DNA from: a virus
Direction: 5' to 3' (one strand)
Length of the DNA stretch: 63,913 bases
Virus record (IMG/VR): IMGVR_UViG_3300048918_000192
Coordinates: 1 to 63,913 of that record
Shown here one piece after another: positions 7,522-23,117 of this stretch; positions within the stretch are counted from its first letter, which is position 1, and every line of letters begins with the position of its first letter. The notes under the pieces were generated by a model. That model ran no database searches and was not told where the DNA came from. It saw only the letters and a program-made list of their open reading frames with translations. The position numbers and the translations under genes were made by a program.

Positions 7522-10394
7522 TGCCTTGGTTTATCATCGCTGCCTTTGTTGTCGGCCTTATCGCGTCGCTGTTCCTTGCGCCGAAGCCCAAGCTCGAGAA
7601 CGCTCGCGCGTCCACCTTATCGGACCTTAACTTTCCTCGCGCCAAGGAAGGCGACCCAAAGCCCTGGATCATCGGTAAGATCCGAAATAAGGGACCGAAC
7701 ACACTTTGGGCAGGAGACTTCGAGGCTCGACCAATCAAGAAGAAGGTTAAGACTGGCCTCTTCACTTCCAAGAAGCAGATTGTCGGATATAACTACCTTG
7801 TCGGTCTCGTCATGGACTGGGGCTTAGGCCCTGGCGTAACGCTTCATAAGATTTGGAGCGCCAAAGACGTCCTGTGGTCGGGTACAGCTACCGCCGACGG
7901 TACGATCATCGATGTCAATAAGCCAGACCTTTACGGTGGCAAGGAGAAGGGCGGCGGGTTCGTTGGTCGCATCCGTTATTACAGTGGCAGCTTCACGCAG
8001 GGCATCAACGCTTACTATCAGTCCAAGCAAGGTAGCGGCGACGTTCCCGCCTACCGTGGCAGCATTATCACAGTGTTCGAGCACGTCAATGTCGGCGAGC
8101 AGAATACCATCCGCGAGATCTCCGCTGAGCTGTCCCGCTACCCGAACGGGCTTGGGCTTGCTGGCGGCAAACACATCGTCGGCGAAGACGCTAATCCGAT
8201 GGAAGCGCTCTATCAGCTGTTCACCGCGGATTGGGGCGGGCTTGACGTCTCGCCGGCGATGCTCGATCTCGATAGCATGATTGACTGCGGAAACACGTTG
8301 TTCGATGAAGGCAACGGCATCTCGCTAATCATTTCCAATCCGAACGACGGCAAGGGTGTCGCGACCGAGATCCTCCGTCAAATAAATGCTATCATGTACA
8401 ACGATCCGGAGACGGGCAAAATCGTTGTGAAGCTCATCCGCGACGACTTCGGTGATATCGACTTGCTCCCGCACTTTAACGAGAGCAACATTCTTGGTAT
8501 CCGGTCCTTCACGCGCAAGCTGTGGGAAGATACGATTAACGTCGTGCGCGTCACGTACACGAATCGTGATAAGCTGTATGCGGATGGAACTGCCATGCAA
8601 CAGGACATGGCGAACATCGGTGCGCAAGGACGTCTCCGCCCGTCGACTGCCTCTTACCCTGGCATCACTACGGCTGTGCTGGCAAACTTCGTCTGTGCCC
8701 GCGACCTAGCTGTTGGCTCCGTTCCGCTTATGTCGGCTCAGATTGAGTGCAACCGTGAAGGGTCAAAGCTACGGCCGGGCGACCGCTTTGTGTGGTCATG
8801 GGGCCCGTATAACATCAACCAAGTAGTTATGCGAGTGACCACATTTGACCTCGGTTCGCTCACGGACAACCGCATCACGTGGAACTGCGTCCAAGATGAG
8901 TTTGCAATTAGCGACACCCTTATCGGTGACCCTGTCGGCAGCGGTACAAGTGTGAGCGGGCCTGGCTACGTCGCCAGCAGCGCAACAAATCGTATTGTCA
9001 AGGAAGTACCATTCTTCTTTGCAGCGGCAGCGGGTCTTGGACTTCCTGACAGTTCCTCGCTCTTGCTGGTCGCTGCGTCTGCGGCTACCGGCACTGACAG
9101 CATGGATATCTACACGTCCACGGACGCGGGCGTAACGTACAACGAATCGGCAGAAGGGCTGGTACTCACTCCGATCGGTACGCTTGGCACTGCTATCTCT
9201 GCTGTCGCCAACCTAGCAACGGGCGTTATCCCGTCGCTGAGCGTTACCATTGACCCAACGCTGGTCGATCAGAACACTGCGACGCTAGCTGCGAGCGGCG
9301 GTGGCATGTTCCTTATCGGAAACGAACTGTTCGTGTTTGAAACACGGACGACGGGCAGCGGGGTCGTTACCCTCAACAACGTATGGCGGTCGGTTCTCGA
9401 TACGTCACCGGCGGCACATGCCATCGGAGACGCTGTGTTCTTTATCACTGGCGATAACATCGTAGAAGATGCATTCCCTAACACGGCAACCGTTCGTGTC
9501 AAGATGCTGCCGAATATGTTCCAGAGCTCGCTTGACGAAGCTAGCGCACCTTTCGACTCGATCACGCTGAACAAGCGTTCTGCCCGTCCGCTACCGCCTG
9601 AGGCCATTAAGTTCGGCGCGGGGGCGTTCTTCGCTCCTCCCGCTGCGGCGACTGGTATCCAGACCATCACTTGGGCGAACCGTAGCAGGCTTGGCTCTAA
9701 GGTGCGGAAGATTATCGACCTCACTAACGAGTTCGAGCCCAATCAGCAGACTGTCATCCGTTACCGCATTGGCGCGGGTGCGTGGGTCGCTACGAACTTC
9801 GATCCGGGCATTACGACCGCCTCTATCGATACAGGTGTAACGGCCGGCACTCGCGAATGGCAGATCTATGCTGTTCGTGATGGACTGGAAAGCTGGGCGT
9901 CGTGGGGCTTTGTTGCGGGTGCTGCGGACGCAACGAGCACGTCACCGGATACCGGCGGAACTACGCCAGCGGATCCGGCTACGCCTGGCGGTCCGACTAC
10001 TCCGCCTGATCCTTACACGCCTCCGACCGATGCGGACATCACAACTGCGTCGCAGGTCTCGCTGGTCTTCCCATTCGGCGAGTTCGCTGGCACCTATGCT
10101 ATCGACCTGCCGATCACCTATCCGATCACCATTCCTGCGGGGCTGGTAGGTACGAACGTTGACCACAAGGCGAATCCGACCATTGTGCAGACGTTCACGT
10201 TGAAGAAGATTACTGCGCTCGGTACTGTCACGACGGTTGGAAGTGTTGCTATCAGCACTGGCGGGGTCTATACGTTGACAGCGGCTTCCGATATCGTGCT
10301 GGTCGCTGGTGATACCCTTTCGTGTCAGCCTCCGGCAGTTGAGGATACGGCGCTCAGGGGTGCTACCATCTCGGTCGCAGGTAGGAAGTCATAG
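7521..10394 (+). CDS. Central tail hub / host-specificity protein (lambda gpJ / RcGTA g15-like)
   Basis: 957 aa with a GTG overlapping the previous stop. It has an N-terminal hydrophobic helix and a gpJ-like block (VRVTYTNRDKLYADGTAMQQDMANI). It is the largest tip gene. Confidence 0.65.
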   Translation: MPWFIIAAFVVGLIASLFLAPKPKLENARASTLSDLNFPRAKEGDPKPWIIGKIRNKGPNTLWAGDFEARPIKKKVKTGLFTSKKQIVGYNYLVGLVMDWGLGPGVTLHKIWSAKDVLWSGTATADGTIIDVNKPDLYGGKEKGGGFVGRIRYYSGSFTQGINAYYQSKQGSGDVPAYRGSIITVFEHVNVGEQNTIREISAELSRYPNGLGLAGGKHIVGEDANPMEALYQLFTADWGGLDVSPAMLDLDSMIDCGNTLFDEGNGISLIISNPNDGKGVATEILRQINAIMYNDPETGKIVVKLIRDDFGDIDLLPHFNESNILGIRSFTRKLWEDTINVVRVTYTNRDKLYADGTAMQQDMANIGAQGRLRPSTASYPGITTAVLANFVCARDLAVGSVPLMSAQIECNREGSKLRPGDRFVWSWGPYNINQVVMRVTTFDLGSLTDNRITWNCVQDEFAISDTLIGDPVGSGTSVSGPGYVASSATNRIVKEVPFFFAAAAGLGLPDSSSLLLVAASAATGTDSMDIYTSTDAGVTYNESAEGLVLTPIGTLGTAISAVANLATGVIPSLSVTIDPTLVDQNTATLAASGGGMFLIGNELFVFETRTTGSGVVTLNNVWRSVLDTSPAAHAIGDAVFFITGDNIVEDAFPNTATVRVKMLPNMFQSSLDEASAPFDSITLNKRSARPLPPEAIKFGAGAFFAPPAAATGIQTITWANRSRLGSKVRKIIDLTNEFEPNQQTVIRYRIGAGAWVATNFDPGITTASIDTGVTAGTREWQIYAVRDGLESWASWGFVAGAADATSTSPDTGGTTPADPATPGGPTTPPDPYTPPTDADITTASQVSLVFPFGEFAGTYAIDLPITYPITIPAGLVGTNVDHKANPTIVQTFTLKKITALGTVTTVGSVAISTGGVYTLTAASDIVLVAGDTLSCQPPAVEDTALRGATISVAGRKS

Positions 10395-16284: not shown

Positions 16285-17243
16285 TACATCCGCATTCCGA
16301 TAATGGCTCCGCGCACCCGCTCGCCGAAGAACAGCGCTGGCTCGGGGTACAGGGCGAAGTCCGCGGTATGCGCTACGCCATTCAGCAGACCTAGCATGGC
16401 GATGTTATAGCAACCGTCAAAGTCGATATCGTCGACCTCGTATGTGCCGCCGGTGAAGTCCTCTGTGTGGGTCCGTAGCAGCCCGTTATTGATGTACACG
16501 CGGCTTGCTCCGTCTGCGATGCGCTGAAGCACCTCAATACCCGTAAAGAGCTCAGGCGGGATAGCTTTGGCGTTGCACGGCTTGTTGAGGATGTCCGTCA
16601 TCTTTTCGAACGGCCAGTCCCCTTGCAGAAGTTGGCTCCGTATCCAGCGCCCGTCCGTATAGTGGAAGGTGATCGAACGGTCGTGTAGCTGCGCATGAGT
16701 AGGCGCTTCGTCGACCCGCAGAATCTCGTTGACGCAATAGCGCGGCAAGTTCACTTGGAACGGGACAGGTGTACCGATCCAGTATTCGATAAGACAGGCG
16801 TTGTTCGTAGCGAAGGCTGAGTGCCCTTGGAACAGGATGCCGTTTGCCCATGGCCGTGATGCATCGTTACCGATAAACGGCTGTAGCGTCTTACACGCTG
16901 CGAGCAGCTCCTCACCGTTAAATTGGATTGGCTCACCTTCGGGTAGCGGGTGGACGGTCTCACCTTCGATCGTTTCGACGAACGCACGGAACCGACCGCT
17001 CTCAATACGCAAGCGCCCGCCAGCAGTCATGCTGAGCGTGATAGCTTCCTCGCATTGCTGAATTGCTTTGACAAGCTGGACCGCTTTCGGGTTGCAGTCG
17101 ATATCGAACGCTATTGGGCTGCTGATAGCCATCTGCCCGTTGAAGCTGCGGACGTGCCCGCCTTCGATACGAAAGTGCGTCATAGCGGGCAGCAAGTCCT
17201 TCTTACCGACCGCACCCTGTACGAACTTGAGGTCCTTGAGCAT
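16284..17243 (-). CDS. DnaN-like beta sliding clamp
   Basis: 319 aa. It aligns by eye with E. coli DnaN blocks: ANGILFQ...ATNNACLIEY to LNGMLFE...ATDGHRLA, VNLPRYCVNEILRV, SQLLQGDWPFEKM, and the C-terminal AIIGMRM to VVMPMRL. Confidence 0.75.
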   Translation of the reverse strand: MLKDLKFVQGAVGKKDLLPAMTHFRIEGGHVRSFNGQMAISSPIAFDIDCNPKAVQLVKAIQQCEEAITLSMTAGGRLRIESGRFRAFVETIEGETVHPLPEGEPIQFNGEELLAACKTLQPFIGNDASRPWANGILFQGHSAFATNNACLIEYWIGTPVPFQVNLPRYCVNEILRVDEAPTHAQLHDRSITFHYTDGRWIRSQLLQGDWPFEKMTDILNKPCNAKAIPPELFTGIEVLQRIADGASRVYINNGLLRTHTEDFTGGTYEVDDIDFDGCYNIAMLGLLNGVAHTADFALYPEPALFFGERVRGAIIGMRM

Positions 17244-18196
17244 TACTGAAGCATCCCATAAAGGTCTTGCTGTTTACCCTCAAGGTAACAAGCGCGACGG
17301 CGTTCATCCATTATCTTATTGATTTCACCGAACGCCCAAAGGTTGAAGGCAGCGCGGGACTCGTAGACCTCTCCTACTCGTTCATAGTCGAAGCCATAGC
17401 GCTCAAGCAGTCCAAAGACAAAGTCCTTCTCTGGTTCGCTGAGGGTAGTGATATGCTGGCCCCAATCGTGCCGACTAGGGGACTTGGTTGAGACAGCGAT
17501 TGGCCAAGCAGGGTTGGAGGTGCTAGCTCCTGGCATAACGATAGACCCAAAGGCAGCAGACTGAATCCATGAAGAGGAGTCGCAGGAGTACCAATCGAAC
17601 TCCTCCATAAGTGGAACCGCTGTGATACCGAATCCATGAACTTTAATCTTAGCGCGCCCGGATCCATCCAGTAGATGATTCTCCCAAACTCGCTCAAGCC
17701 AATTCCGAAGTTGCGCCGTAGACGCGCCGACCATGCCTCCGAGCGTAATGTACTCATAGTTCGCCACGTAGTAATCGAGGTAGCGGGAGTCCTCTTCGAA
17801 GTGGAAACAGGGTAATGGCCGAACACCTCGTGCCTCCATTTCAAGTTGGTTGCGATATGTCTTAAGTGGGTCGCCGATACCGTCCAACACCGACGCCATA
17901 AGGATGCCGTCTTCCTTGCGAATGATATCCTCGTTCTTTTGGATGTACTCGCAATACTCCCGCACCGATAACTCAACGCCCAAGGTGTACGCCGAGAACG
18001 CACCAGAGTCGAGGAAGATCTGCGCTCCGTTGCGGCGCATGTGGTCAACGAACGACTGCTTACCTACATAGTGCCACGACTCGAGGATGTGCGGGAGACC
18101 CATGAGGATCTCCCGTTCCCGTTCGTTCAATTTGACGTAGCGGTTCATTCCCTCCGGATAACTATTGGAGTAGACCGCGGCCATGTAGATGTGCAT
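17243..18196 (-). CDS. dpdA: DpdA-like DNA guanine transglycosylase (TGT superfamily)
   Basis: 317 aa. The blocks IFLDSGAFSAY, ITLGGMVGAS, KVHGFGIT and YSCDSSSW resemble conserved TGT/DpdA regions. It is adjacent to the preQ0 genes. Confidence 0.7.
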   Translation of the reverse strand: MHIYMAAVYSNSYPEGMNRYVKLNEREREILMGLPHILESWHYVGKQSFVDHMRRNGAQIFLDSGAFSAYTLGVELSVREYCEYIQKNEDIIRKEDGILMASVLDGIGDPLKTYRNQLEMEARGVRPLPCFHFEEDSRYLDYYVANYEYITLGGMVGASTAQLRNWLERVWENHLLDGSGRAKIKVHGFGITAVPLMEEFDWYSCDSSSWIQSAAFGSIVMPGASTSNPAWPIAVSTKSPSRHDWGQHITTLSEPEKDFVFGLLERYGFDYERVGEVYESRAAFNLWAFGEINKIMDERRRACYLEGKQQDLYGMLQ

Positions 18197-18220
18197 GGGC
18201 TTACCCTAGCAGTTCGCTAG

Positions 18221-19114
18221 TTACCTCGCAAGCTGTAGAAACTCGGCACGAGCCGATGGTTCATCCTTGAACACCCCTCGAAGAGCGCTTGTGACAGTGT
18301 GATGTCCCTGCTGACAGACGCCCCGCGATTCCATGCAGAGGTGCCGTGCTTTGACCACAACGCCGCAGCCGAGCGGTTTCAGATGCTCCATGAGCGCATC
18401 CGCGACCTGAGCCGTTAGGCGCTCCTGCACCTGTAACCGACGAGCGTAGGCGTTCAGCACCCTGTTCAACTTGGACAAGCCGACAATCTTCTTGTCTGGC
18501 AAGTAAGCGATAGTCGCCGTGCCAAAGAAGGGCGCCATGTGATGCTCGCAGTGCGTATAGAACGGGATGTCCTTGACGACCACCATTTCGTCGCAGCCCT
18601 CAGCGCCGTCCTCGAACGTTTTGAGCAGAGCACCGATGTCTTGGTCGTATCCGCTACACCAGAACGCCCAGGCTTTGGCGACGCGAGCAGGAGTCTCTTC
18701 GAGCCCGCCGCGTTCGGGGTTCTCTCCAATGAACTGGAGCAGGCGACGGATGTTGTCTTCGATACCACCGACGCTGTCGCCTTCCCACGGCCACACGACC
18801 CAATCCTCGCCGAACGCCCAGTTCCGCTTATCGATGAGAGCGAAGAACGGTTTGTCTCCGAACTTCTCCTTCGTCTTGCCGGTGTCGATAAGATCGTCGA
18901 AGATGAAGTCAGCTTCCAACGGGTTGTCGGTAAGCTCGAGCTTCATGTGCGCACGGTAGAGCGATAGCACTGCCGGCACCCCGCCGCGCGGGACAGGATA
19001 GACCGTTAAGTGCGTATCCACGATGCCGCGGTTCTTGAAGTACAGGCGAATTCGGTCGGCTGCGTCGTGCGCTAGCGCGGCGAGTTCTTTGTAGCTGATG
19101 ACTTGCGTTCCCAT
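18221..19114 (-). CDS. folE: Fusion of an XGPRT-like phosphoribosyltransferase domain and GTP cyclohydrolase I
   Basis: 297 aa. The N-terminal ~105 aa has VPRGGVP, the PRPP loop ADFIFDDLIDTGKT and DWVVWPWE (compare E. coli Gpt ...TWIEQPWD). The C-terminal part has FYTHCEHHMAPFFG, GLSKLNR and QVQERLT. Confidence 0.8.
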   Translation of the reverse strand: MGTQVISYKELAALAHDAADRIRLYFKNRGIVDTHLTVYPVPRGGVPAVLSLYRAHMKLELTDNPLEADFIFDDLIDTGKTKEKFGDKPFFALIDKRNWAFGEDWVVWPWEGDSVGGIEDNIRRLLQFIGENPERGGLEETPARVAKAWAFWCSGYDQDIGALLKTFEDGAEGCDEMVVVKDIPFYTHCEHHMAPFFGTATIAYLPDKKIVGLSKLNRVLNAYARRLQVQERLTAQVADALMEHLKPLGCGVVVKARHLCMESRGVCQQGHHTVTSALRGVFKDEPSARAEFLQLAR

Positions 19115-19575
19115 TAGTCCCTCGCGTAGATGGCGCTATTGCCGCCGTGCTCGCGCACCTCGACAGACATGATTTGGAGCCCTCGGGTATCGCACTCGAG
19201 GAAGTGTTCTTCGCCGAGCCAGTCGTCGACGTAATCGAAGACGTACTTGGCAAACGACTCGCATCCCACGCCAGGCAGGATGTTAATGAGGTCGAAGCCC
19301 CACTTGTTGTAGAGCGCGACGAAGTCAGGAAGGGCGGGGTCGTCCTGCGCGAGGATGGTGCGGTGGTCGAAGTTCTTGCACAACCACTCTTTGATTGGCT
19401 TGAGACCGCCGAAGTCGAGGACCCAATTATCCTTTGTGAGCTTGACCGCACCGAACGTGAGCTTGAAGCTCAACGGGTATCCGTGAGGGTCTTTGCAGTG
19501 CGACTCCGCACCAGGCTGGCGGAAGCAAGCGCTCAGGCCAAGGTTGTGGTCATAAGTCTTAGTGACGTAGTACAC
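19114..19575 (-). CDS. queD: 6-carboxytetrahydropterin synthase (QueD/PTPS family)
   Basis: 153 aa with a GTG start. The N-terminus KTYDHNLGLSACFRQ...HCKDPHGY fits a QueD-type fold. It lies between folE and queC. Confidence 0.7.
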   Translation of the reverse strand: MYYVTKTYDHNLGLSACFRQPGAESHCKDPHGYPLSFKLTFGAVKLTKDNWVLDFGGLKPIKEWLCKNFDHRTILAQDDPALPDFVALYNKWGFDLINILPGVGCESFAKYVFDYVDDWLGEEHFLECDTRGLQIMSVEVREHGGNSAIYARD

Positions 19576-20987
19576 TATTCGTTCCCTCCCTCATATTCGA
19601 TTACCTCTGGCAATCCGTTAATTCTGAATGCCGTGCGCCGCATATAGCACGGGCCGCACGTTCCGCAATGCTTGTCGCCAGCGCGATAGCAGCTCCACGT
19701 GAGGTGAAGCGGAGCATCAAGCTCAATACCCGCTGCAACAATCTCATGCTTCATAAGATTGCCGACGGGCATGATGACCTTCAGCTTCTTCCCGTCGCCG
19801 ATCGCAAATGGGAGCAGGTCGTTAAACCGTGCAATGAACTCAGGTTCGTTGTCCGGATAGGCGCCAGCTTCCTCGAGGTTGTTACCGAGGACCAGTGTGT
19901 CGAACCCATTGGCTTCGGCGTAAGCTGTGGCAAGCGATAGCATCACTAAGTTCCGCGCCGGAACCCATTCATAGGCGAACTCAGCGCCAGCTTCCCCTCC
20001 AGCTATGCGGTCGTCGGCACGGAGCAAAGGAGAATCATCTTGCCCATAGATAGCCATGGACTTAAAGACCACATCGACGCCCATAGCTTCAGCTACGTTG
20101 CGGATAGCATCTTGCTCGGGACCTTCAGCCCGGCTACCGTAGCGGAAATGGAGCAGCGTAACGTCGCACCCATTCGCTTTGACGTAGGCTGCCGCAACGA
20201 CGCTGTCCATGCCGCCGCTGCATACCACGAGCGCTCGCTGAGTCACCCTGTCGGGCGTGTCAAGCCTGTGCTTTAGCTCAGGAGTGAACAGCCAACAGCT
20301 ATATGGTTCGAGCATCTGCGGCACAAGGAACGTCGGAAAATAGTCCCGCGAGCTAGCAAAGAAGCATCCGTTAGTCGCTGCGGCGAACCATACAGGTCGA
20401 TAGTTACAGGCAACGAACATTGCGTCCGGATGGTCGTCATGTGTGGCTAGGATAGCGTAGCTGCCCTTGAGCTTAGCGATCTGCATCTGGAAATACTGAC
20501 CACAGCCATAGATGTCGGTTGCTCGGTCCTCGCTCGCAAGTAGCTCCGCGATTGCGGCGCTGTCAACCGTCGTAGGTAGGGCGACGAACTTCCGAGCACA
20601 TGCTTCGCGAAGCTCCCTGTCGTTTGCGATAGTTCCGTTATGAACGATGTTCCACTTGCCGGCGCGATAGGGTTGCTGGTCGAAGTCCCGCTTCGTCTCA
20701 ACATATTCGGTCGTCGGTTCAGCACGAGTATTGCCGATCATGACAGCGCTGTCCATTAACCGGAACGCATCGAAATAGTCGTTGGACTCCGGTCGCGACA
20801 TGCGTTCGGTCGATTTACGTTCGTAGTTCTGACCAGTTGTCTTAGCAGGACTTTCATGAACGTGGAAGCCCCATCCGTCTCGGCCACGTTCGAAGCTAGC
20901 GTTGAAGATATGCTCGAGGACGAAGTTTGCGCCCTTCACGGCGGACGGCGAAGCGCTCCAGATGAGCGCACCAAAGACAGAGCACAT
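19575..20987 (-). CDS. queC: Gat-QueC: class-II glutamine amidotransferase fused to 7-cyano-7-deazaguanine synthase
   Basis: 470 aa. The N-terminal MCSVFG has the Ntn catalytic Cys2. The C-terminal half has the PP-loop VVCSGGMDSVV and the zinc motif CGTCGPCYMR. Confidence 0.8.
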   Translation of the reverse strand: MCSVFGALIWSASPSAVKGANFVLEHIFNASFERGRDGWGFHVHESPAKTTGQNYERKSTERMSRPESNDYFDAFRLMDSAVMIGNTRAEPTTEYVETKRDFDQQPYRAGKWNIVHNGTIANDRELREACARKFVALPTTVDSAAIAELLASEDRATDIYGCGQYFQMQIAKLKGSYAILATHDDHPDAMFVACNYRPVWFAAATNGCFFASSRDYFPTFLVPQMLEPYSCWLFTPELKHRLDTPDRVTQRALVVCSGGMDSVVAAAYVKANGCDVTLLHFRYGSRAEGPEQDAIRNVAEAMGVDVVFKSMAIYGQDDSPLLRADDRIAGGEAGAEFAYEWVPARNLVMLSLATAYAEANGFDTLVLGNNLEEAGAYPDNEPEFIARFNDLLPFAIGDGKKLKVIMPVGNLMKHEIVAAGIELDAPLHLTWSCYRAGDKHCGTCGPCYMRRTAFRINGLPEVIEYEGGNE

Positions 20988-21703
20988 TATTCGACTCCTA
21001 CGACTTTGTGGATCTGGACCTGGAGGATGTAACCGAACAGTAGGCAGGACTTAACCGCCGCTGCGTTGTTCATCCTGTTCTTCTCGACATCCTGGCTGTC
21101 CATCGGTTGGACGTACACAGGTCTGTCCCAACCCTCGGGCGGTCGAGCAACCCAAGGGGACGCCGTGTGTTGGAGAGCTTGAAGCGGTAATCCGTCATCG
21201 AGACCAACATTACCGGCTTCGACAACGTACTTGAGCGCACATGCGCGGAACAGCGCATCAGGATGCACCTTGCCAGTCTTGGGACTGACAACCATGTACA
21301 CGCCAAATCGCTTTGTTGGATCCGTTGCCCACGGCAACCCGCCGATGGGCTGGAGGGTTCCGTTCGATTCGATCTGCACGAAGAAACCGTGCTCGTGAAG
21401 CTGCCAGCACAGTTCACGGATGTCCTGTCGAAACGGTTCGCCGCCTGTGATAACGACCAGTCCTTCCTTGCGGAGTTCCTGCACAGACGACAAAACGGCT
21501 TGCGCCGTCATCGAGGTTCGTTTGGAGGTGTAGTCCGTATCGCAGCCCGGGCATTGTAAGTTGCATCCGGTTAGGCGAACAAAGACACAGGGGAAACCGC
21601 AGAAGGGCCCTTCGCCCTGGATGGTTTCAAAGATGGAGTGAACGTGGAGAAGGCCGTCGGTTCTGAAGGCTCGCTTCTCGATTGGTTGGGTATTGATTGA
21701 CAC
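20987..21703 (-). CDS. queE: 7-carboxy-7-deazaguanine synthase (radical SAM)
   Basis: 238 aa with a GTG start. It has GCNLQCPGCDT (CxxxCxxC) preceded by ETIQGEGPF. Confidence 0.8.
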   Translation of the reverse strand: MSINTQPIEKRAFRTDGLLHVHSIFETIQGEGPFCGFPCVFVRLTGCNLQCPGCDTDYTSKRTSMTAQAVLSSVQELRKEGLVVITGGEPFRQDIRELCWQLHEHGFFVQIESNGTLQPIGGLPWATDPTKRFGVYMVVSPKTGKVHPDALFRACALKYVVEAGNVGLDDGLPLQALQHTASPWVARPPEGWDRPVYVQPMDSQDVEKNRMNNAAAVKSCLLFGYILQVQIHKVVGVE

Positions 21704-21721
21704 TGGTCCTCCGGGAGGTAG

Positions 21722-21751
21722 CTAGGGGCCGCTCCGAAGAACGACCCCTAG
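21722..21751 (-). other. 13-bp GC-rich hairpin with a UUCG tetraloop (minus-strand RNA)
   Basis: The minus-strand RNA reads cuaggggucguuc-UUCG-gagcggccccuag. Two U.G pairs work only on this strand. It lies 24 nt after the stop at 21775 and has no U tract. Confidence 0.6.
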
Positions 21752-21774
21752 CAGGTTTCGGCGGGTATTGGAAG

Positions 21775-22323
21775 TTAGGCGTTCTCGGTCTGCTTGGCAG
21801 TCTGCTTCGCAGCAGCGGCCGCAGCCTTTTCATCCGCCTTCTTCTTTTCGGCAGCCGCCTTCTCCGCGAGCTTGCGCGGGTCTTCGACGCGACCGCTGAT
21901 GCCGAAGAACTTCCGCCAGCGAGCGTACTCGGCGCGGACGTTGGCTTCGTTCAGGCCCTGCGAACGAGCGACTTCCATCGACTCGCCGATCGACGCGGGA
22001 GCGCCGTTCTGCTTGCTGATGTCGTCGAAGATGGCCCACGCCTTGCCGCAGAGACCGTCCGGCTTCGGCCGGCGGATACCGTTCTGCTCCGGCATACGGG
22101 ACGCTTCACGCGCTGCGGCGGCTTCGTCCTTCTTGCGCTGGCGCTCGGCAGCTTCCGCCGCCTTCTTGTCCTCGCGAGCCTTAGCCGCGGCAGCCTTTTC
22201 GGCTTCCTTCTTGGCTTTGGCTTCCGCCTTTTCGGCGTCCTTGCGAGCCTTCTCGTCGGCTTTCGCCTTGTCGGCGGCGGCCTTTTCTGCGGCGATTTCT
22301 TCCGCAGTCTTCTCTTCTGCCAT
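21775..22323 (-). CDS. Lys/Ala-rich (histone-H1-like) protein with a central 'EQNGIRRP' domain
   Basis: 182 aa counted from the ATG 6 nt after GGAG (MAEEK...). KA/E-rich low-complexity arms flank PEQNGIRRPKPDGLCGKAWAIFD...YARWRKFFGISGR. This domain is paralogous to 39374..39778. Confidence 0.6.
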   Translation of the reverse strand: MAEEKTAEEIAAEKAAADKAKADEKARKDAEKAEAKAKKEAEKAAAAKAREDKKAAEAAERQRKKDEAAAAREASRMPEQNGIRRPKPDGLCGKAWAIFDDISKQNGAPASIGESMEVARSQGLNEANVRAEYARWRKFFGISGRVEDPRKLAEKAAAEKKKADEKAAAAAAKQTAKQTENA

Positions 22324-22394
22324 TTTCATCTCCGTTGTCCATGGGCGGACTATAAGGGGGCTAGCACTCCGCCCGTAACAATGCAAGCCCTTAT

Positions 22395-23117
22395 TTATGA
22401 GATACGACTTTTCATCCAGTTACCAAGCTCGTTACTCGAACTCGTGCGCTTGATGCTTTTCTCCGTCTCCAATCTGGCCATCATCTCCTTGCGTAGTGCG
22501 AGGACGACGTCCTTGTCGGTCGGCTTACCAGCCGCTTCCCACATTTCGTCTGCCACGGCCCAAATGGTGGGGCGAACGCTGTTCATGCGCGTAGCGGCGC
22601 TACGGGGCGGCATGGGGCGCGCTGCCGCCGGTGCCGCCGTTGGGGTAGCGCTGCGCACCTTGCGGCGCTGTGGGGCCCGTGTAGCGGCTTCCTGCGCTTC
22701 AATCGCGTTGAGCGGCGCTGTGTGTAAGTGGAACAGGTCTTCCTGCTTGGCTGGCTTGTTCGCTCCGAGCGCATAGGTGTACGCGATACCAGCGTAAAGG
22801 TCGTCTTCAACGGCTGCTACCTGTGCTTCAAGTTCGCTGAGACTTGCGTGAGCAGCTTTGAGCTTCTCCTCGACAAGTGTGGCCAGCATCTCCCTGACCA
22901 CAATATGCTCGGTCCCAGTGATGTCGAGGCCGGTCGTGTTCTTGTACAGCATCCGTAGATCTAACCCCGACATCTTAGCGAGGAAGAACTCACGGTCTGT
23001 ATTCTCTATCGTAACCGAATGACCTGGCATCTCCAGCCAAGCTAGGTGGCGCACCACCTCAGCGTCACGATGCTTGTGGACGAACTGTAGGTCGTCCATA
23101 TTGATGCTAACGTACAT
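22395..23117 (-). CDS. Hypothetical protein; C-terminus distantly resembles the 'EQNGIRRP' family domain
   Basis: 240 aa. The C-terminal RPTIWAVADEMWEAAGKPTDKDVV...NELGNWMKS parallels the C..VW..D...P...V...N..E..WRK pattern. Confidence 0.5.
   Translation of the reverse strand: MYVSINMDDLQFVHKHRDAEVVRHLAWLEMPGHSVTIENTDREFFLAKMSGLDLRMLYKNTTGLDITGTEHIVVREMLATLVEEKLKAAHASLSELEAQVAAVEDDLYAGIAYTYALGANKPAKQEDLFHLHTAPLNAIEAQEAATRAPQRRKVRSATPTAAPAAARPMPPRSAATRMNSVRPTIWAVADEMWEAAGKPTDKDVVLALRKEMMARLETEKSIKRTSSSNELGNWMKSRIS

What the first reader, a model, noticed from the sequence alone, without database searches (positions are those of the whole stretch)
18221..19114. GTP cyclohydrolase I fused to an XGPRT-like phosphoribosyltransferase: a possible guanine-recycling loop
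The FolE enzyme carries an extra N-terminal domain of about 105 aa. It has a PRPP-binding loop (ADFIFDDLIDTGKT) and ends in DWVVWPWE, as E. coli Gpt ends in ...TWIEQPWD.

DpdA-type base exchange releases one free guanine for every modified position. A guanine PRTase attached to the first pathway enzyme could turn that guanine back into GMP, and then GTP, the FolE substrate. That would close a salvage loop. I do not recall this fusion being discussed for the known phage deazaguanine clusters.
Basis: inference. Interest (0 to 1): 0.7.

Follow-up and report, generated by a model that had tools for sequence, protein, structure and literature searches.

The report
Mini guanine-salvage domain fused to FolE
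The first enzyme of this phage's DNA-modification pathway (GTP cyclohydrolase I) carries an unannotated, stripped-down relative of the bacterial guanine/xanthine salvage enzyme Gpt; the fusion is real and common in phages and some bacteria, but whether it recycles guanine is untested.

Summary
Window 18221-19114 (minus strand) is one 297-aa ORF. Residues 118-296 are a complete GTP cyclohydrolase I (FolE). Residues 1-111 are a minimal type I phosphoribosyltransferase (PRTase) domain.

Pfam, NCBIfam and PHROGs give no hit for the N-domain, but profiles of its homologues hit solved XGPRT/XPRT structures first. The AlphaFold model is confident.

The fusion is not an artefact. It occurs in 34 GenBank phage records, in 79 of 80 IMG/VR loci (nearly all with QueD/QueE and DpdA, most with QueC), and in 32 Dehalococcoidia chromosomes with no deazaguanine genes nearby. 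Unfused homologues sit directly beside folE in at least four other gene arrangements.

Residues that bind PRPP and a 6-oxopurine in Gpt are 86-100% conserved, but the catalytic flexible loop II and part of the hood are deleted.

Most likely it is a 6-oxopurine (guanine) PRTase feeding the GTP pool that FolE drains. The DpdA-specific recycling loop is plausible but cannot be the whole reason for the fusion. Activity is untested. No paper in the library mentions the domain.

The parts
18221..19114 (-). Whole 297-aa ORF: mini-PRTase::FolE fusion (stop codon 18221-18223)
   Evidence: AlphaFold2 model built from 119 homologues has mean pLDDT 92.
18782..19114 (-). N-terminal minimal type I PRTase domain, residues 1-111, XGPRT-like
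   Evidence: Profile against PDB hits XPRT/XGPRT at E 1.6e-9. hhalign against E. coli Gpt gives 97.7%. pLDDT is 89-98, and the strand/helix order E3-5 H8-27 E35-40 H45-55 E58-61 E70-76 H80-83 E90-95 E105-107 fits a PRTase core. In BFVD the non-FolE hits are PRTases.
18980..18988 (-). Loop I (pyrophosphate loop), R43-G44-G45; aligns with Gpt R37-G38-G39
   Evidence: Alignments. Conserved R 88% (plus K 7%), G 97%, G 100% over 150 representatives that are no more than 50% identical to each other.
18872..18913 (-). PRPP-binding motif ADFIFDDLIDTGKT, residues 68-81. D73/D74 align with Gpt D88/D89 and D77 with Gpt D92 (the N7-contacting Asp of 6-oxopurine PRTases).
   Evidence: Conservation: D73 and D74 99%, D77 95%, S/T78 98%, G79 97%, T81 98%.
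18827..18829 (-). K96, aligns with Gpt K115 (contacts the 6-oxo group in 6-oxopurine PRTases)
   Evidence: Alignments. K in 86% of representatives. The role of this residue is from memory of the XGPRT/HGPRT structures.
18782..18805 (-). Shortened hood and C-terminal motif DWVVWPWE, residues 104-111. W105 aligns with Gpt W134 (stacks on the base); P109-W110-E111 align with P138-W139-D140.
   Evidence: Each residue is 93% conserved. P. horikoshii purine PRTase 1vdm ends ...WIVFPWE.
18764..18781 (-). Linker, residues 112-117
   Evidence: pLDDT drops to 69 in the block 111-120.
18224..18763 (-). GTP cyclohydrolase I (FolE type IA) domain, residues 118-297
   Evidence: Pfam 235 bits and NCBIfam above cut-off. 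Foldseek against PDB hits FolE at E about 5e-23 and TM (target) 0.87-0.91.
18539..18550 (-). C189-E190-H191-H192: zinc-binding and catalytic motif of FolE (E. coli C110, H112, H113)
   Evidence: Invariant in 119 homologues. The mapping to E. coli residues is from established knowledge.
18335..18343 (-). H258-L259-C260: second zinc-binding and catalytic element of FolE (E. coli H179, C181)
   Evidence: Invariant in 119 homologues.
19114..19575 (-). QueD (CPH4 synthase). Its stop overlaps the fusion's start codon.
   Evidence: Pfam PTPS; sequence.
19575..20987 (-). Gat-QueC (glutamine amidotransferase fused to QueC)
   Evidence: Pfam QueC plus GATase_6/7.
20987..21703 (-). QueE (radical SAM CDG synthase)
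   Evidence: Pfam Radical_SAM and Fer4_12. Same position as QueE in phage homologues.
17243..18196 (-). DpdA (DNA guanine transglycosylase), starts 24 nt after the fusion's stop codon
   Evidence: phrog_887, E 1.6e-83. Same position as DpdA in MMDA13, NP1 and VpKK5.

Best explanation
The gene encodes a true two-domain protein. A complete zinc-dependent GTP cyclohydrolase I (FolE) is preceded by a roughly 111-aa minimal type I phosphoribosyltransferase whose closest solved relatives are bacterial xanthine-guanine PRTases (Gpt).

The domain most likely binds PRPP and a 6-oxopurine, guanine being the obvious one, and makes the nucleoside monophosphate. Host kinases then raise GMP to GTP, the substrate FolE consumes to start preQ0/archaeosine synthesis. 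Because the two domains are one polypeptide, salvage capacity scales one-to-one with the enzyme that drains the guanine-nucleotide pool.

In DpdA phages the free guanine expelled from DNA at every exchange would be the natural input, so the pathway becomes close to guanine-neutral and the exchange product is removed. The link is to FolE rather than to DpdA, because cellular Dehalococcoidia carry the same fusion without DpdA nearby.

Shown: domain identity, fold, conservation of ligand-binding residues, and the recurrent fusion or adjacency with folE. Inferred: catalytic activity, guanine as the substrate, and any recycling loop.
For: Domain identity:
- A profile of 49 diverse N-domains has XPRT/XGPRT as its top PDB hits (E 1.6e-9, full length). 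All 14 hits at E <= 0.01 are purine PRTases.
- hhalign against E. coli Gpt gives 97.7% probability.
- The AlphaFold2 N-domain has pLDDT 89-98 with a PRTase-like strand/helix order.
- In BFVD the non-FolE matches are phage and giant-virus PRTases.

Conservation:
- Residues aligning with Gpt R37, D88, D89, D92, T93, G94, T96, K115, W134 and P138-W139-D140 are 86-100% conserved across 150 representatives that share no more than 50% identity. They are also kept in the Dehalococcoidia copies.
- The DDxxD(S/T)GxT form with the third Asp is typical of 6-oxopurine PRTases, not APRT, OPRT or UPRT (my own knowledge).

Recurrence of the fusion:
- 34 of 386 FolE-encoding GenBank phage records.
- 79 of 80 IMG/VR loci, 71 of them with DpdA within 10 kb.
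- 325 clusters at 50% identity contain the domain.

Separate PRTase genes lie directly beside folE in:
- Flavobacterium phage immuto, order PRT then FolE; this copy passes the Pfam Pribosyltran cut-off at 35.1 bits.
- Brevundimonas phage StAshley, order FolE then PRT.
- Two metagenomic clusters, QueD-QueE-FolE-PRT.

Stand-alone copies also occur with no folE nearby (L007, L056, L139), which fits an enzyme with a function of its own.

The TAATG start/stop overlap with queD, and dpdA 24 nt downstream, indicate one operon.
Against: - The flexible catalytic loop II is deleted. The spacer from RGG to DD is 26-28 aa, against 48 in Gpt. Deleting seven loop residues in T. cruzi HPRT lowers kcat 380-840-fold (PMC9536471).
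- About 10 residues of the hood are also missing.
- The window domain itself gets no hit in Pfam, NCBIfam or PHROGs.
- GMP is not FolE's substrate, and no guanylate or nucleoside-diphosphate kinase was found among the 20 neighbouring genes scanned, so there is no direct channelling.
- Hosts normally have their own Gpt/Hpt.
- Most FolE-encoding phages lack the domain, including the experimentally studied 9g/CAjan-type coliphages.
- In Dehalococcoidia the fusion exists with no DpdA context, so guanine released by DpdA cannot be the general reason for the fusion.
- No biochemical data exist.
Confidence: 0.5

Rival explanations
1. The domain is a ligand sensor rather than an enzyme. It is a PRTase-derived module that still binds PRPP, guanine or GMP but is catalytically weak or dead. 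It tunes FolE activity or assembly to the purine or PRPP supply, much as PurR uses a PRTase fold to sense PRPP.
For: - Loop II and part of the hood are missing, and loss of the loop is known to cripple catalysis (PMC9536471).
- The partner is always FolE, including in cellular Dehalococcoidia where nothing points to DNA modification.
- GMP is not a FolE substrate, so the two reactions are not consecutive.
- Conserved binding residues are equally expected for a sensor.
Against: - Homologues exist as stand-alone proteins with no folE within 8-10 kb (L007, L056, L139).
- The Asp that contacts N7 is 95% conserved.
- To my knowledge there is no precedent for purine or PRPP regulation of bacterial FolE.
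- Close unfused relatives in phages (immuto, StAshley, phiST) are ordinary PRTases by Pfam or by annotation.
Confidence: 0.25
2. The domain is a 7-deazaguanine-base PRTase, like TubE or ToyH of the tubercidin and toyocamycin pathways. It would convert CDG, preQ0 or archaeosine base plus PRPP into a nucleotide, either for incorporation during replication or to trap the base inside the cell.
For: - TubE, a purine-type PRTase encoded together with GCH I, QueD and QueE homologues, was shown in vitro to use CDG + PRPP (PMC6112128).
- The phage domain also sits in a FolE-QueD-QueE-QueC cluster.
- 7-deazaguanines keep the 6-oxo and 2-amino groups that K96 and the hood would read.
Against: - 71 of 79 fused loci encode DpdA, which inserts the free base after replication, so turning the base into a nucleotide would compete with it.
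- The domain is fused or adjacent to FolE, the GTP consumer, not to QueE or QueC, which make the base.
- No Campylobacter phage appears among the tblastn hits. These phages completely replace dG and have no identified DpdA (PMC10484667).
- The Dehalococcoidia fusions have no Que genes nearby.
- The closest structures are XGPRTs.
- The conserved D77 is positioned for N7, which deazapurines lack (inference).
Confidence: 0.12
3. The extension has no ligand-related function. It is only an oligomerisation or stability appendage on FolE, or the fusion is an assembly or frameshift artefact.
For: FolE N-termini vary. Pantoea phage Vid5 and Providencia phage PSTCR4 carry other, unrelated N-terminal extensions of roughly 90 and 158 aa. 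The window domain misses all curated family thresholds.
Against: - The same in-frame fusion occurs in hundreds of independent assemblies and in isolated phages.
- The conserved positions are precisely the PRPP-, pyrophosphate- and purine-binding residues.
- Homologues exist as free-standing genes.
Confidence: 0.04

Closest known systems
E. coli xanthine-guanine phosphoribosyltransferase, Gpt/XGPRT (PDB 1A95, 1NUL; Yersinia-type XPRT 5XTK, 6KQC)
   Same: Best profile match over the full length. Shares the RGG pyrophosphate loop, the DDxxDTGxT PRPP motif with the third Asp, the Lys after strand 5, the stacking Trp and the C-terminal PW(D/E) motif.
   Different: About 21% identity over the aligned columns. 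111 aa instead of 152. The roughly 20-residue flexible loop II hairpin and about 10 hood residues are deleted. No hit to any NCBIfam or Pfam model for the window copy. Fused to FolE.
Pyrococcus horikoshii purine phosphoribosyltransferase PH0095 (PDB 1VDM) and small archaeal or phage PRTases
   Same: E 3.1e-9 to the family profile. Has an identical ...W(I/V)VFPWE ending. Small stand-alone relatives occur in archaeal MAGs (L139) and in phages (immuto, phiST, StAshley).
   Different: 1VDM (153 aa), phiST and StAshley copies keep the long loop segment, so the profile hit is split in two. None of them is fused to FolE.
TubE / ToyH, the PRTases of the tubercidin and toyocamycin gene clusters
   Same: A purine-type PRTase encoded together with GTP cyclohydrolase I, QueD and QueE homologues (PMC6112128).
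   Different: TubE (194 aa) uses CDG and belongs to a nucleoside-antibiotic pathway that has no transglycosylase. Here DpdA is present, the partner is FolE, and the nearest structures are XGPRTs. Sequence relationship to TubE/ToyH was not tested.
Gat-QueC fusion of phage 9g-type clusters
   Same: An accessory catalytic domain fused to a core preQ0-pathway enzyme in the same Queuovirinae-type operon. It is also present in this window.
   Different: Gat-QueC changes the chemical product to archaeosine and has been described and tested (PMC6884629). The PRTase::FolE fusion is unannotated and untested.
Bifunctional HGPRT/adenylate kinase of Zobellia galactanivorans (PMC7326950)
   Same: Precedent for a 6-oxopurine PRTase fused to another nucleotide-metabolism enzyme. 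Only the abstract was seen.
   Different: The partner there carries out a following phosphorylation step. FolE is neither the next nor the previous step.

Membership tests
Type I phosphoribosyltransferases (Pfam PF00156 Pribosyltran) | Score above the curated Pfam gathering threshold (26.3 bits) | tested here: not met
   The window protein gets no hit at E <= 1. Fused phage relatives score 10.8-18.7 bits. Met only by some members: the stand-alone immuto protein at 35.1 bits, and precomputed PF00156 on 8 of the 120 listed fused proteins.
Type I phosphoribosyltransferases (Pfam PF00156 Pribosyltran) | PRPP-binding motif: hydrophobic strand, two acidic residues, then xx(D)(S/T)GxT | tested here: met
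   F70-I-F-D73-D74-L-I-D77-T78-G79-K-T81. 95-99% conserved over 150 representatives.
Type I phosphoribosyltransferases (Pfam PF00156 Pribosyltran) | Alpha/beta core fold with a parallel sheet, and pyrophosphate loop I after strand 2 | tested here: met
   Confident AlphaFold2 model (pLDDT 89-98) with strand-helix-strand-helix-strand-strand-helix-strand order and R43-G-G after strand 35-40. Foldseek BFVD non-FolE hits are PRTases at probability 1.0, E 1.4e-3. A PDB fold match for the isolated domain could not be seen because FolE hits filled the list.
Type I phosphoribosyltransferases (Pfam PF00156 Pribosyltran) | Flexible catalytic loop II between strands 3 and 4 | tested here: not met
   The RGG-to-DD spacer is 26-28 aa, against 48 in Gpt. 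There is a 14-20 residue gap in both alignments and a single short strand 58-61 in the model.
Type I phosphoribosyltransferases (Pfam PF00156 Pribosyltran) | Catalyses base + PRPP to NMP + PPi | not testable with these tools
   Needs an enzyme assay.
6-oxopurine PRTases, XGPRT (Gpt) subfamily | Closest sequence-profile relatives are XGPRT/XPRT | tested here: met
   Top seven PDB sequences are XPRT/XGPRT or the P. horikoshii purine PRTase; HPRTs are weaker and APRTs are absent at E <= 0.01. hhalign gives 97.7%.
6-oxopurine PRTases, XGPRT (Gpt) subfamily | Base-recognition residues: Asp at N7 (Gpt D92), Lys at O6 (K115), stacking aromatic (W134), C-terminal PWD | tested here: met
   D77, K96, W105 and P109-W110-E111 align with them and are 86-95% conserved. 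The residue roles are from memory of the published XGPRT/HGPRT structures.
6-oxopurine PRTases, XGPRT (Gpt) subfamily | Recognised by a curated Gpt/Hpt family model (NCBIfam) | tested here: not met
   No NCBIfam hit for the 117-aa N-domain at E <= 1.
GTP cyclohydrolase I type IA (FolE) | Curated model scores above cut-off | tested here: met
   Pfam 235.4 bits (cut-off 27). TIGR00063 221.2 bits (cut-off 181.6).
GTP cyclohydrolase I type IA (FolE) | Zinc ligands and catalytic histidines (E. coli C110, H112, H113, H179, C181) and the T-fold | tested here: met
   C189, H191, H192, H258 and C260 are invariant in 119 homologues. Foldseek against solved FolE structures gives TM (target) 0.87-0.91.
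Phage 7-deazaguanine DNA-modification cluster (Queuovirinae type) | [quoted passage not shown] | tested here: met
   All five lie in one minus-strand operon, 17243-21703, in the same order as in MMDA13, NP1 and VpKK5.
Deazapurine-base PRTases (TubE/ToyH) | Uses CDG or preQ0 as the base; the pathway lacks a transglycosylase | tested here: not met
   DpdA is present in the window and in 71 of 79 fused loci. Substrate use cannot be tested here, and sequence relatedness to TubE/ToyH was not tested.

The most novel reading that the evidence does not exclude
A loop-less PRTase of only about 110 aa, the smallest known if it is active, is mounted on the FolE decamer. Together they would form a guanine-recycling unit: every guanine that DpdA ejects from phage DNA is recaptured as GMP and returned to the pathway as GTP. 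Hypermodification would then cost the guanine pool almost nothing, and removing the product would pull the base exchange forward. The missing catalytic loop would be replaced by an element of FolE or of a neighbouring subunit, so the PRTase would work only in the assembled complex.
Probability: 0.25. Interest if true: 0.7.

Novelty: new variant of a known kind. Interest (0 to 1): 0.55.

Why it matters
[quoted passage not shown] This finding adds a sixth, widespread component that has been overlooked. About 9% of FolE-encoding phage records carry it, as do hundreds of metagenomic phage contigs.

Every source calls the protein just "GTP cyclohydrolase I". In PaMx25 the domain was even annotated away.

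If it is active, it links nucleobase salvage to DNA hypermodification and gives a directly testable answer to what happens to the displaced guanine. It would also define a minimal PRTase that works without the canonical catalytic loop, which matters for PRTase enzymology and biocatalysis. If it is a sensor, it would be the first purine- or PRPP-responsive regulator of a bacterial-type FolE.

The Dehalococcoidia fusions show that the FolE-PRTase link goes beyond phages.

Tried and rejected
- Single-sequence searches of the N-domain found nothing in Pfam, NCBIfam, PHROGs, PDB (phmmer) or the word-indexed protein database. Only profiles worked.
- The first AlphaFold run, without an alignment, was useless (pLDDT 36).
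- Foldseek of the full model against PDB listed only FolE chains in its 50 rows, so it gave no direct PDB fold match for the N-domain.
It worked with A2, whose narrower patterns probably under-sample cellular genomes.
- Frameshift or assembly artefact: rejected.
- "Natural split" in PaMx25: rejected. It is an annotation error over an intact ORF.
- Divergent PRTase in the long FolE N-termini of Vid5 and PSTCR4: rejected, no profile hit even with filters off.
- Brevundimonas phage StAshley as a FolE+PRT pair without the deazaguanine pathway: rejected. QueC, QueD and QueE lie 8 kb upstream.
- My simple ORF caller produced spurious antisense ORFs in the high-GC Dehalococcoidia loci. Neighbours there were named only from Pfam hits.
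Full report
**What is at the coordinates.** Window 18221-19114 is a single 297-aa ORF on the minus strand. Its ATG overlaps the stop codon of the upstream QueD gene as TAATG.

It lies in a minus-strand operon:
- QueE, 20987-21703
- Gat-QueC, 19575-20987
- QueD, 19114-19575
- this ORF
- DpdA, 17243-18196
- sliding clamp, then DNA polymerase

These assignments come from Pfam and PHROGs (DpdA is phrog_887, E 1.6e-83). The order is the same as in Sphingomonas phage MMDA13, Pseudomonas phage NP1 and Vibrio phage VpKK5.

No close nucleotide relative exists among GenBank phages. The closest protein match is MMDA13 at 71% identity.

**The C-terminal two thirds are an ordinary, complete FolE.** Pfam GTP_cyclohydroI covers residues 118-296 (E 3.9e-70). 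TIGR00063 scores above its cut-off. The zinc and catalytic residues C189, H191, H192, H258 and C260 are invariant in 119 homologues. The model superposes on solved FolE structures with TM 0.87-0.91.

**The N-terminal third.** On its own it gets no hit in Pfam, NCBIfam, PHROGs, PDB (phmmer) or the word-indexed protein search. This explains why every source calls the protein only "GTP cyclohydrolase I". Profiles change the picture:
- Six phage N-domains already hit XGPRT structures (E 1e-4).
- Forty-nine diverse N-domains hit XPRT/XGPRT (5xtk, 6kqc, 1a95) at E 1.6e-9 to 1.4e-8 over the full length, and the P. horikoshii purine PRTase 1vdm at 3.1e-9.
- All 14 hits at E <= 0.01 are purine PRTases.
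- hhalign against E. coli Gpt gives 97.7% probability and E 1.8e-12. I verified that the Gpt sequence I used is identical to PDB 1a95.

With an alignment of 119 homologues AlphaFold2 gives mean pLDDT 92. The N-domain scores 89-98, with a strand-helix-strand-helix-strand-strand-helix-strand order and a lower-confidence linker at about 111-120.

Foldseek against PDB showed only FolE chains in its 50 rows. Against BFVD, the matches after the FolE block include an unnamed 109-aa viral protein (TM 0.81), the annotated PRTase of Cellulophaga phage phiST, and giant-virus PRTases.

**Which residues are kept and which are lost.** By the alignments, the window residues map onto E. coli Gpt as follows:

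| Window | Gpt |
|---|---|
| R43-G44-G45 | R37-G38-G39 |
| D73, D74 | D88, D89 |
| D77 | D92 |
| T78-G79, T81 | T93-G94, T96 |
| K96 | K115 |
| W105 | W134 |
| P109-W110-E111 | P138-W139-D140 |

Over 150 family representatives that share no more than 50% identity, these positions are 86-100% conserved. From my knowledge of XGPRT/HGPRT structures, these are the pyrophosphate loop, the ribose-5-phosphate motif, the Asp at N7, the Lys at O6 and the stacking aromatic.

Two segments are missing:
- The roughly 20-residue hairpin that carries flexible loop II. The RGG-to-DD spacer is 26-28 aa, against 48 in Gpt.
- About 10 residues of the hood.

[quoted passage not shown] Deleting seven of its residues in T. 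cruzi HPRT reduced kcat 380-840-fold (PMC9536471). This is the main reason not to take activity for granted.

**The fusion is real and widespread.**
- tblastn of the N-domain finds it in 38 GenBank phage records (Sphingomonas, Stenotrophomonas, Pseudomonas Nipunavirus, Xanthomonas, Variovorax, Vibrio), always under a gene named GTP cyclohydrolase.
- Of 386 phage records with a FolE homologue, 34 cover at least 80% of the fused protein.
- The coliphage Queuovirinae, Mycobacterium phages, Vid5 and PSTCR4 lack it.
- An exhaustive HMMER search found 325 clusters at 50% identity.
- A scan of IMG/VR confirmed 228 stretches. In the best 80 loci my local HMM census found 79 in-frame fusions to FolE, and 71 of these have DpdA within 10 kb. 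The other eight are short or truncated contigs.
- In PaMx25 the GenBank annotation splits the gene. The DNA holds one intact 297-aa ORF; the "hypothetical protein" laid over the PRTase part is out of frame.

**The PRTase-FolE association survives when the genes are separate.**
- In Flavobacterium phage immuto, a 131-aa PRTase that passes the Pfam threshold (35.1 bits) lies immediately upstream of folE inside the deazaguanine cluster. It is a reciprocal tblastn relative of the fused domains.
- In Brevundimonas phage StAshley the order is folE then PRTase, with queC, queD and queE 8 kb upstream.
- Two metagenomic contigs show QueD-QueE-FolE-PRT, and DpdA-QueC-QueD-QueE-FolE-PRT.
- Other stand-alone copies have no folE nearby: L007, L056, phiST next to RNase H and ribonucleotide reductase, and an archaeal MAG among housekeeping genes.

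**A result that changes the interpretation.** The scan of one genome per species found the same mini-PRTase::FolE fusion in 32 Dehalococcoidia, mostly on chromosome-scale contigs (about 0.14-5 Mb), with no QueD, QueE, QueC or DpdA within 10 kb.

In L112 the neighbours are Ada, a peptidase, a cyclophilin and an enoyl-CoA hydratase. The order FolE-cyclophilin-hydratase recurs in L112, L119 and L128. The PRTase motif residues are retained. The fusion is therefore neither phage-specific nor DpdA-specific. Whatever it does is tied to FolE.

**Mechanism.** The best-supported reading is a 6-oxopurine PRTase, probably acting on guanine, that replenishes the guanine-nucleotide pool FolE consumes. I put this at about 0.5. 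Expressing both domains as one polypeptide keeps salvage in step with consumption. In DpdA phages the guanine ejected from DNA would be a natural substrate, and removing it would favour the exchange. It is compatible with the data, but it is an inference layered on an untested activity, and it cannot explain the Dehalococcoidia copies.

The rivals are:
- A PRTase-derived ligand sensor that regulates FolE (about 0.25). It is favoured by the missing loop and the exclusive partnership with FolE, and disfavoured by the stand-alone copies.
- A TubE/ToyH-like deazapurine-base PRTase (about 0.12). The precedent is real (PMC6112128). It is disfavoured by the presence of DpdA, by adjacency to FolE rather than QueE or QueC, by the absence of Campylobacter phages (no identified DpdA, PMC10484667) from the tblastn hits, and by the XGPRT-like residues.
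- A mere structural appendage or artefact (about 0.04).

**Literature.** The three key papers on phage deazaguanine clusters (PMC6884629, PMC10516641, PMC10484667) never mention phosphoribosyl, PRTase or salvage in their main text. The only paper containing both "DpdA" and "phosphoribosyltransferase" concerns actinomycete antibiotic clusters. Other term combinations found nothing relevant. Within the searchable library the domain is undescribed. Subscription-only papers could not be searched.

**Verdict.** The domain assignment is supported. The recycling loop is plausible but unproven, and it is not the sole reason for the fusion. This is a new variant of a known kind: a minimal, loop-less XGPRT-like domain in a new and widespread fusion with FolE. 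It is of moderate to good interest because it is common, overlooked and directly testable.

Noticed in passing
L109-L119, L121-L136, L138, L140, L141, L143, L148 (match at about 10001-10300 in each): 32 Dehalococcoidia species carry the mini-PRTase::FolE fusion as a chromosomal gene among housekeeping genes (Ada, peptidase, cyclophilin, enoyl-CoA hydratase), with no Que or DpdA genes within 10 kb.
   Followed up: partly
L099 1371-2301 (Pseudomonas phage PaMx25, JQ067084.3): The GenBank annotation starts folE at an internal GTG and lays an out-of-frame "hypothetical protein" over the PRTase-coding part. The DNA actually holds one intact 297-aa fused ORF.
   Followed up: yes
P0125 (583 aa; the 583-aa fused ORF in IMG/VR locus L013 looks like the same arrangement but was not checked) and P0243: A class-1 intein with an HNH endonuclease is inserted exactly at the zinc-ligand cysteine of FolE (...FYSH|CVVGST...SHN|CEHH...) in some fused homologues.
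   Followed up: partly
Stand-alone family members such as P0139, P0150, P0160, P0133 (L007, L094-L096): Stand-alone mini-PRTases of 140-165 aa carry, after the PWE motif, a helix IEDNIxRLLQY that matches the first helix of the FolE domain in the fusion. One more helix follows and then a stop. This could be a remnant of a former fusion or a docking element for FolE.
   Followed up: no
window 19575-20987 (-): QueC here carries the N-terminal glutamine amidotransferase domain (Gat-QueC). In phage 9g this leads to 2'-deoxyarchaeosine, so this phage probably carries dG+ rather than dPreQ0.
   Followed up: no
L089 1288-2103 (Pantoea phage Vid5) and L090 1033-2049 (Providencia phage PSTCR4): These FolE proteins (271 and 338 aa) have other N-terminal extensions of roughly 90 and 158 aa that give no PRTase profile hit. 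Their nature is unknown.
   Followed up: partly
IMG/VR loci L032, L038, L051, L054, L057, L058, L064, L065, L067, L070, L079, L084, L086: Thirteen fused loci have FolE, QueD, QueE and DpdA but no QueC detectable with my HMM. They may hold a divergent QueC or make a different deazaguanine product.
   Followed up: no
window 21775-22386 (-) with 21697-22776 (+): A Lys/Ala/Glu-rich 203-aa ORF of unknown function (phrog_18634) lies just upstream of QueE. Its low-complexity sequence also produces long ORFs on the opposite strand.
   Followed up: no
L003 4860-5303 (Pseudomonas phage NP1): A homing endonuclease gene sits between the fused folE and dpdA in NP1. Together with the inteins, this shows that mobile elements repeatedly target this operon.
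   Followed up: no
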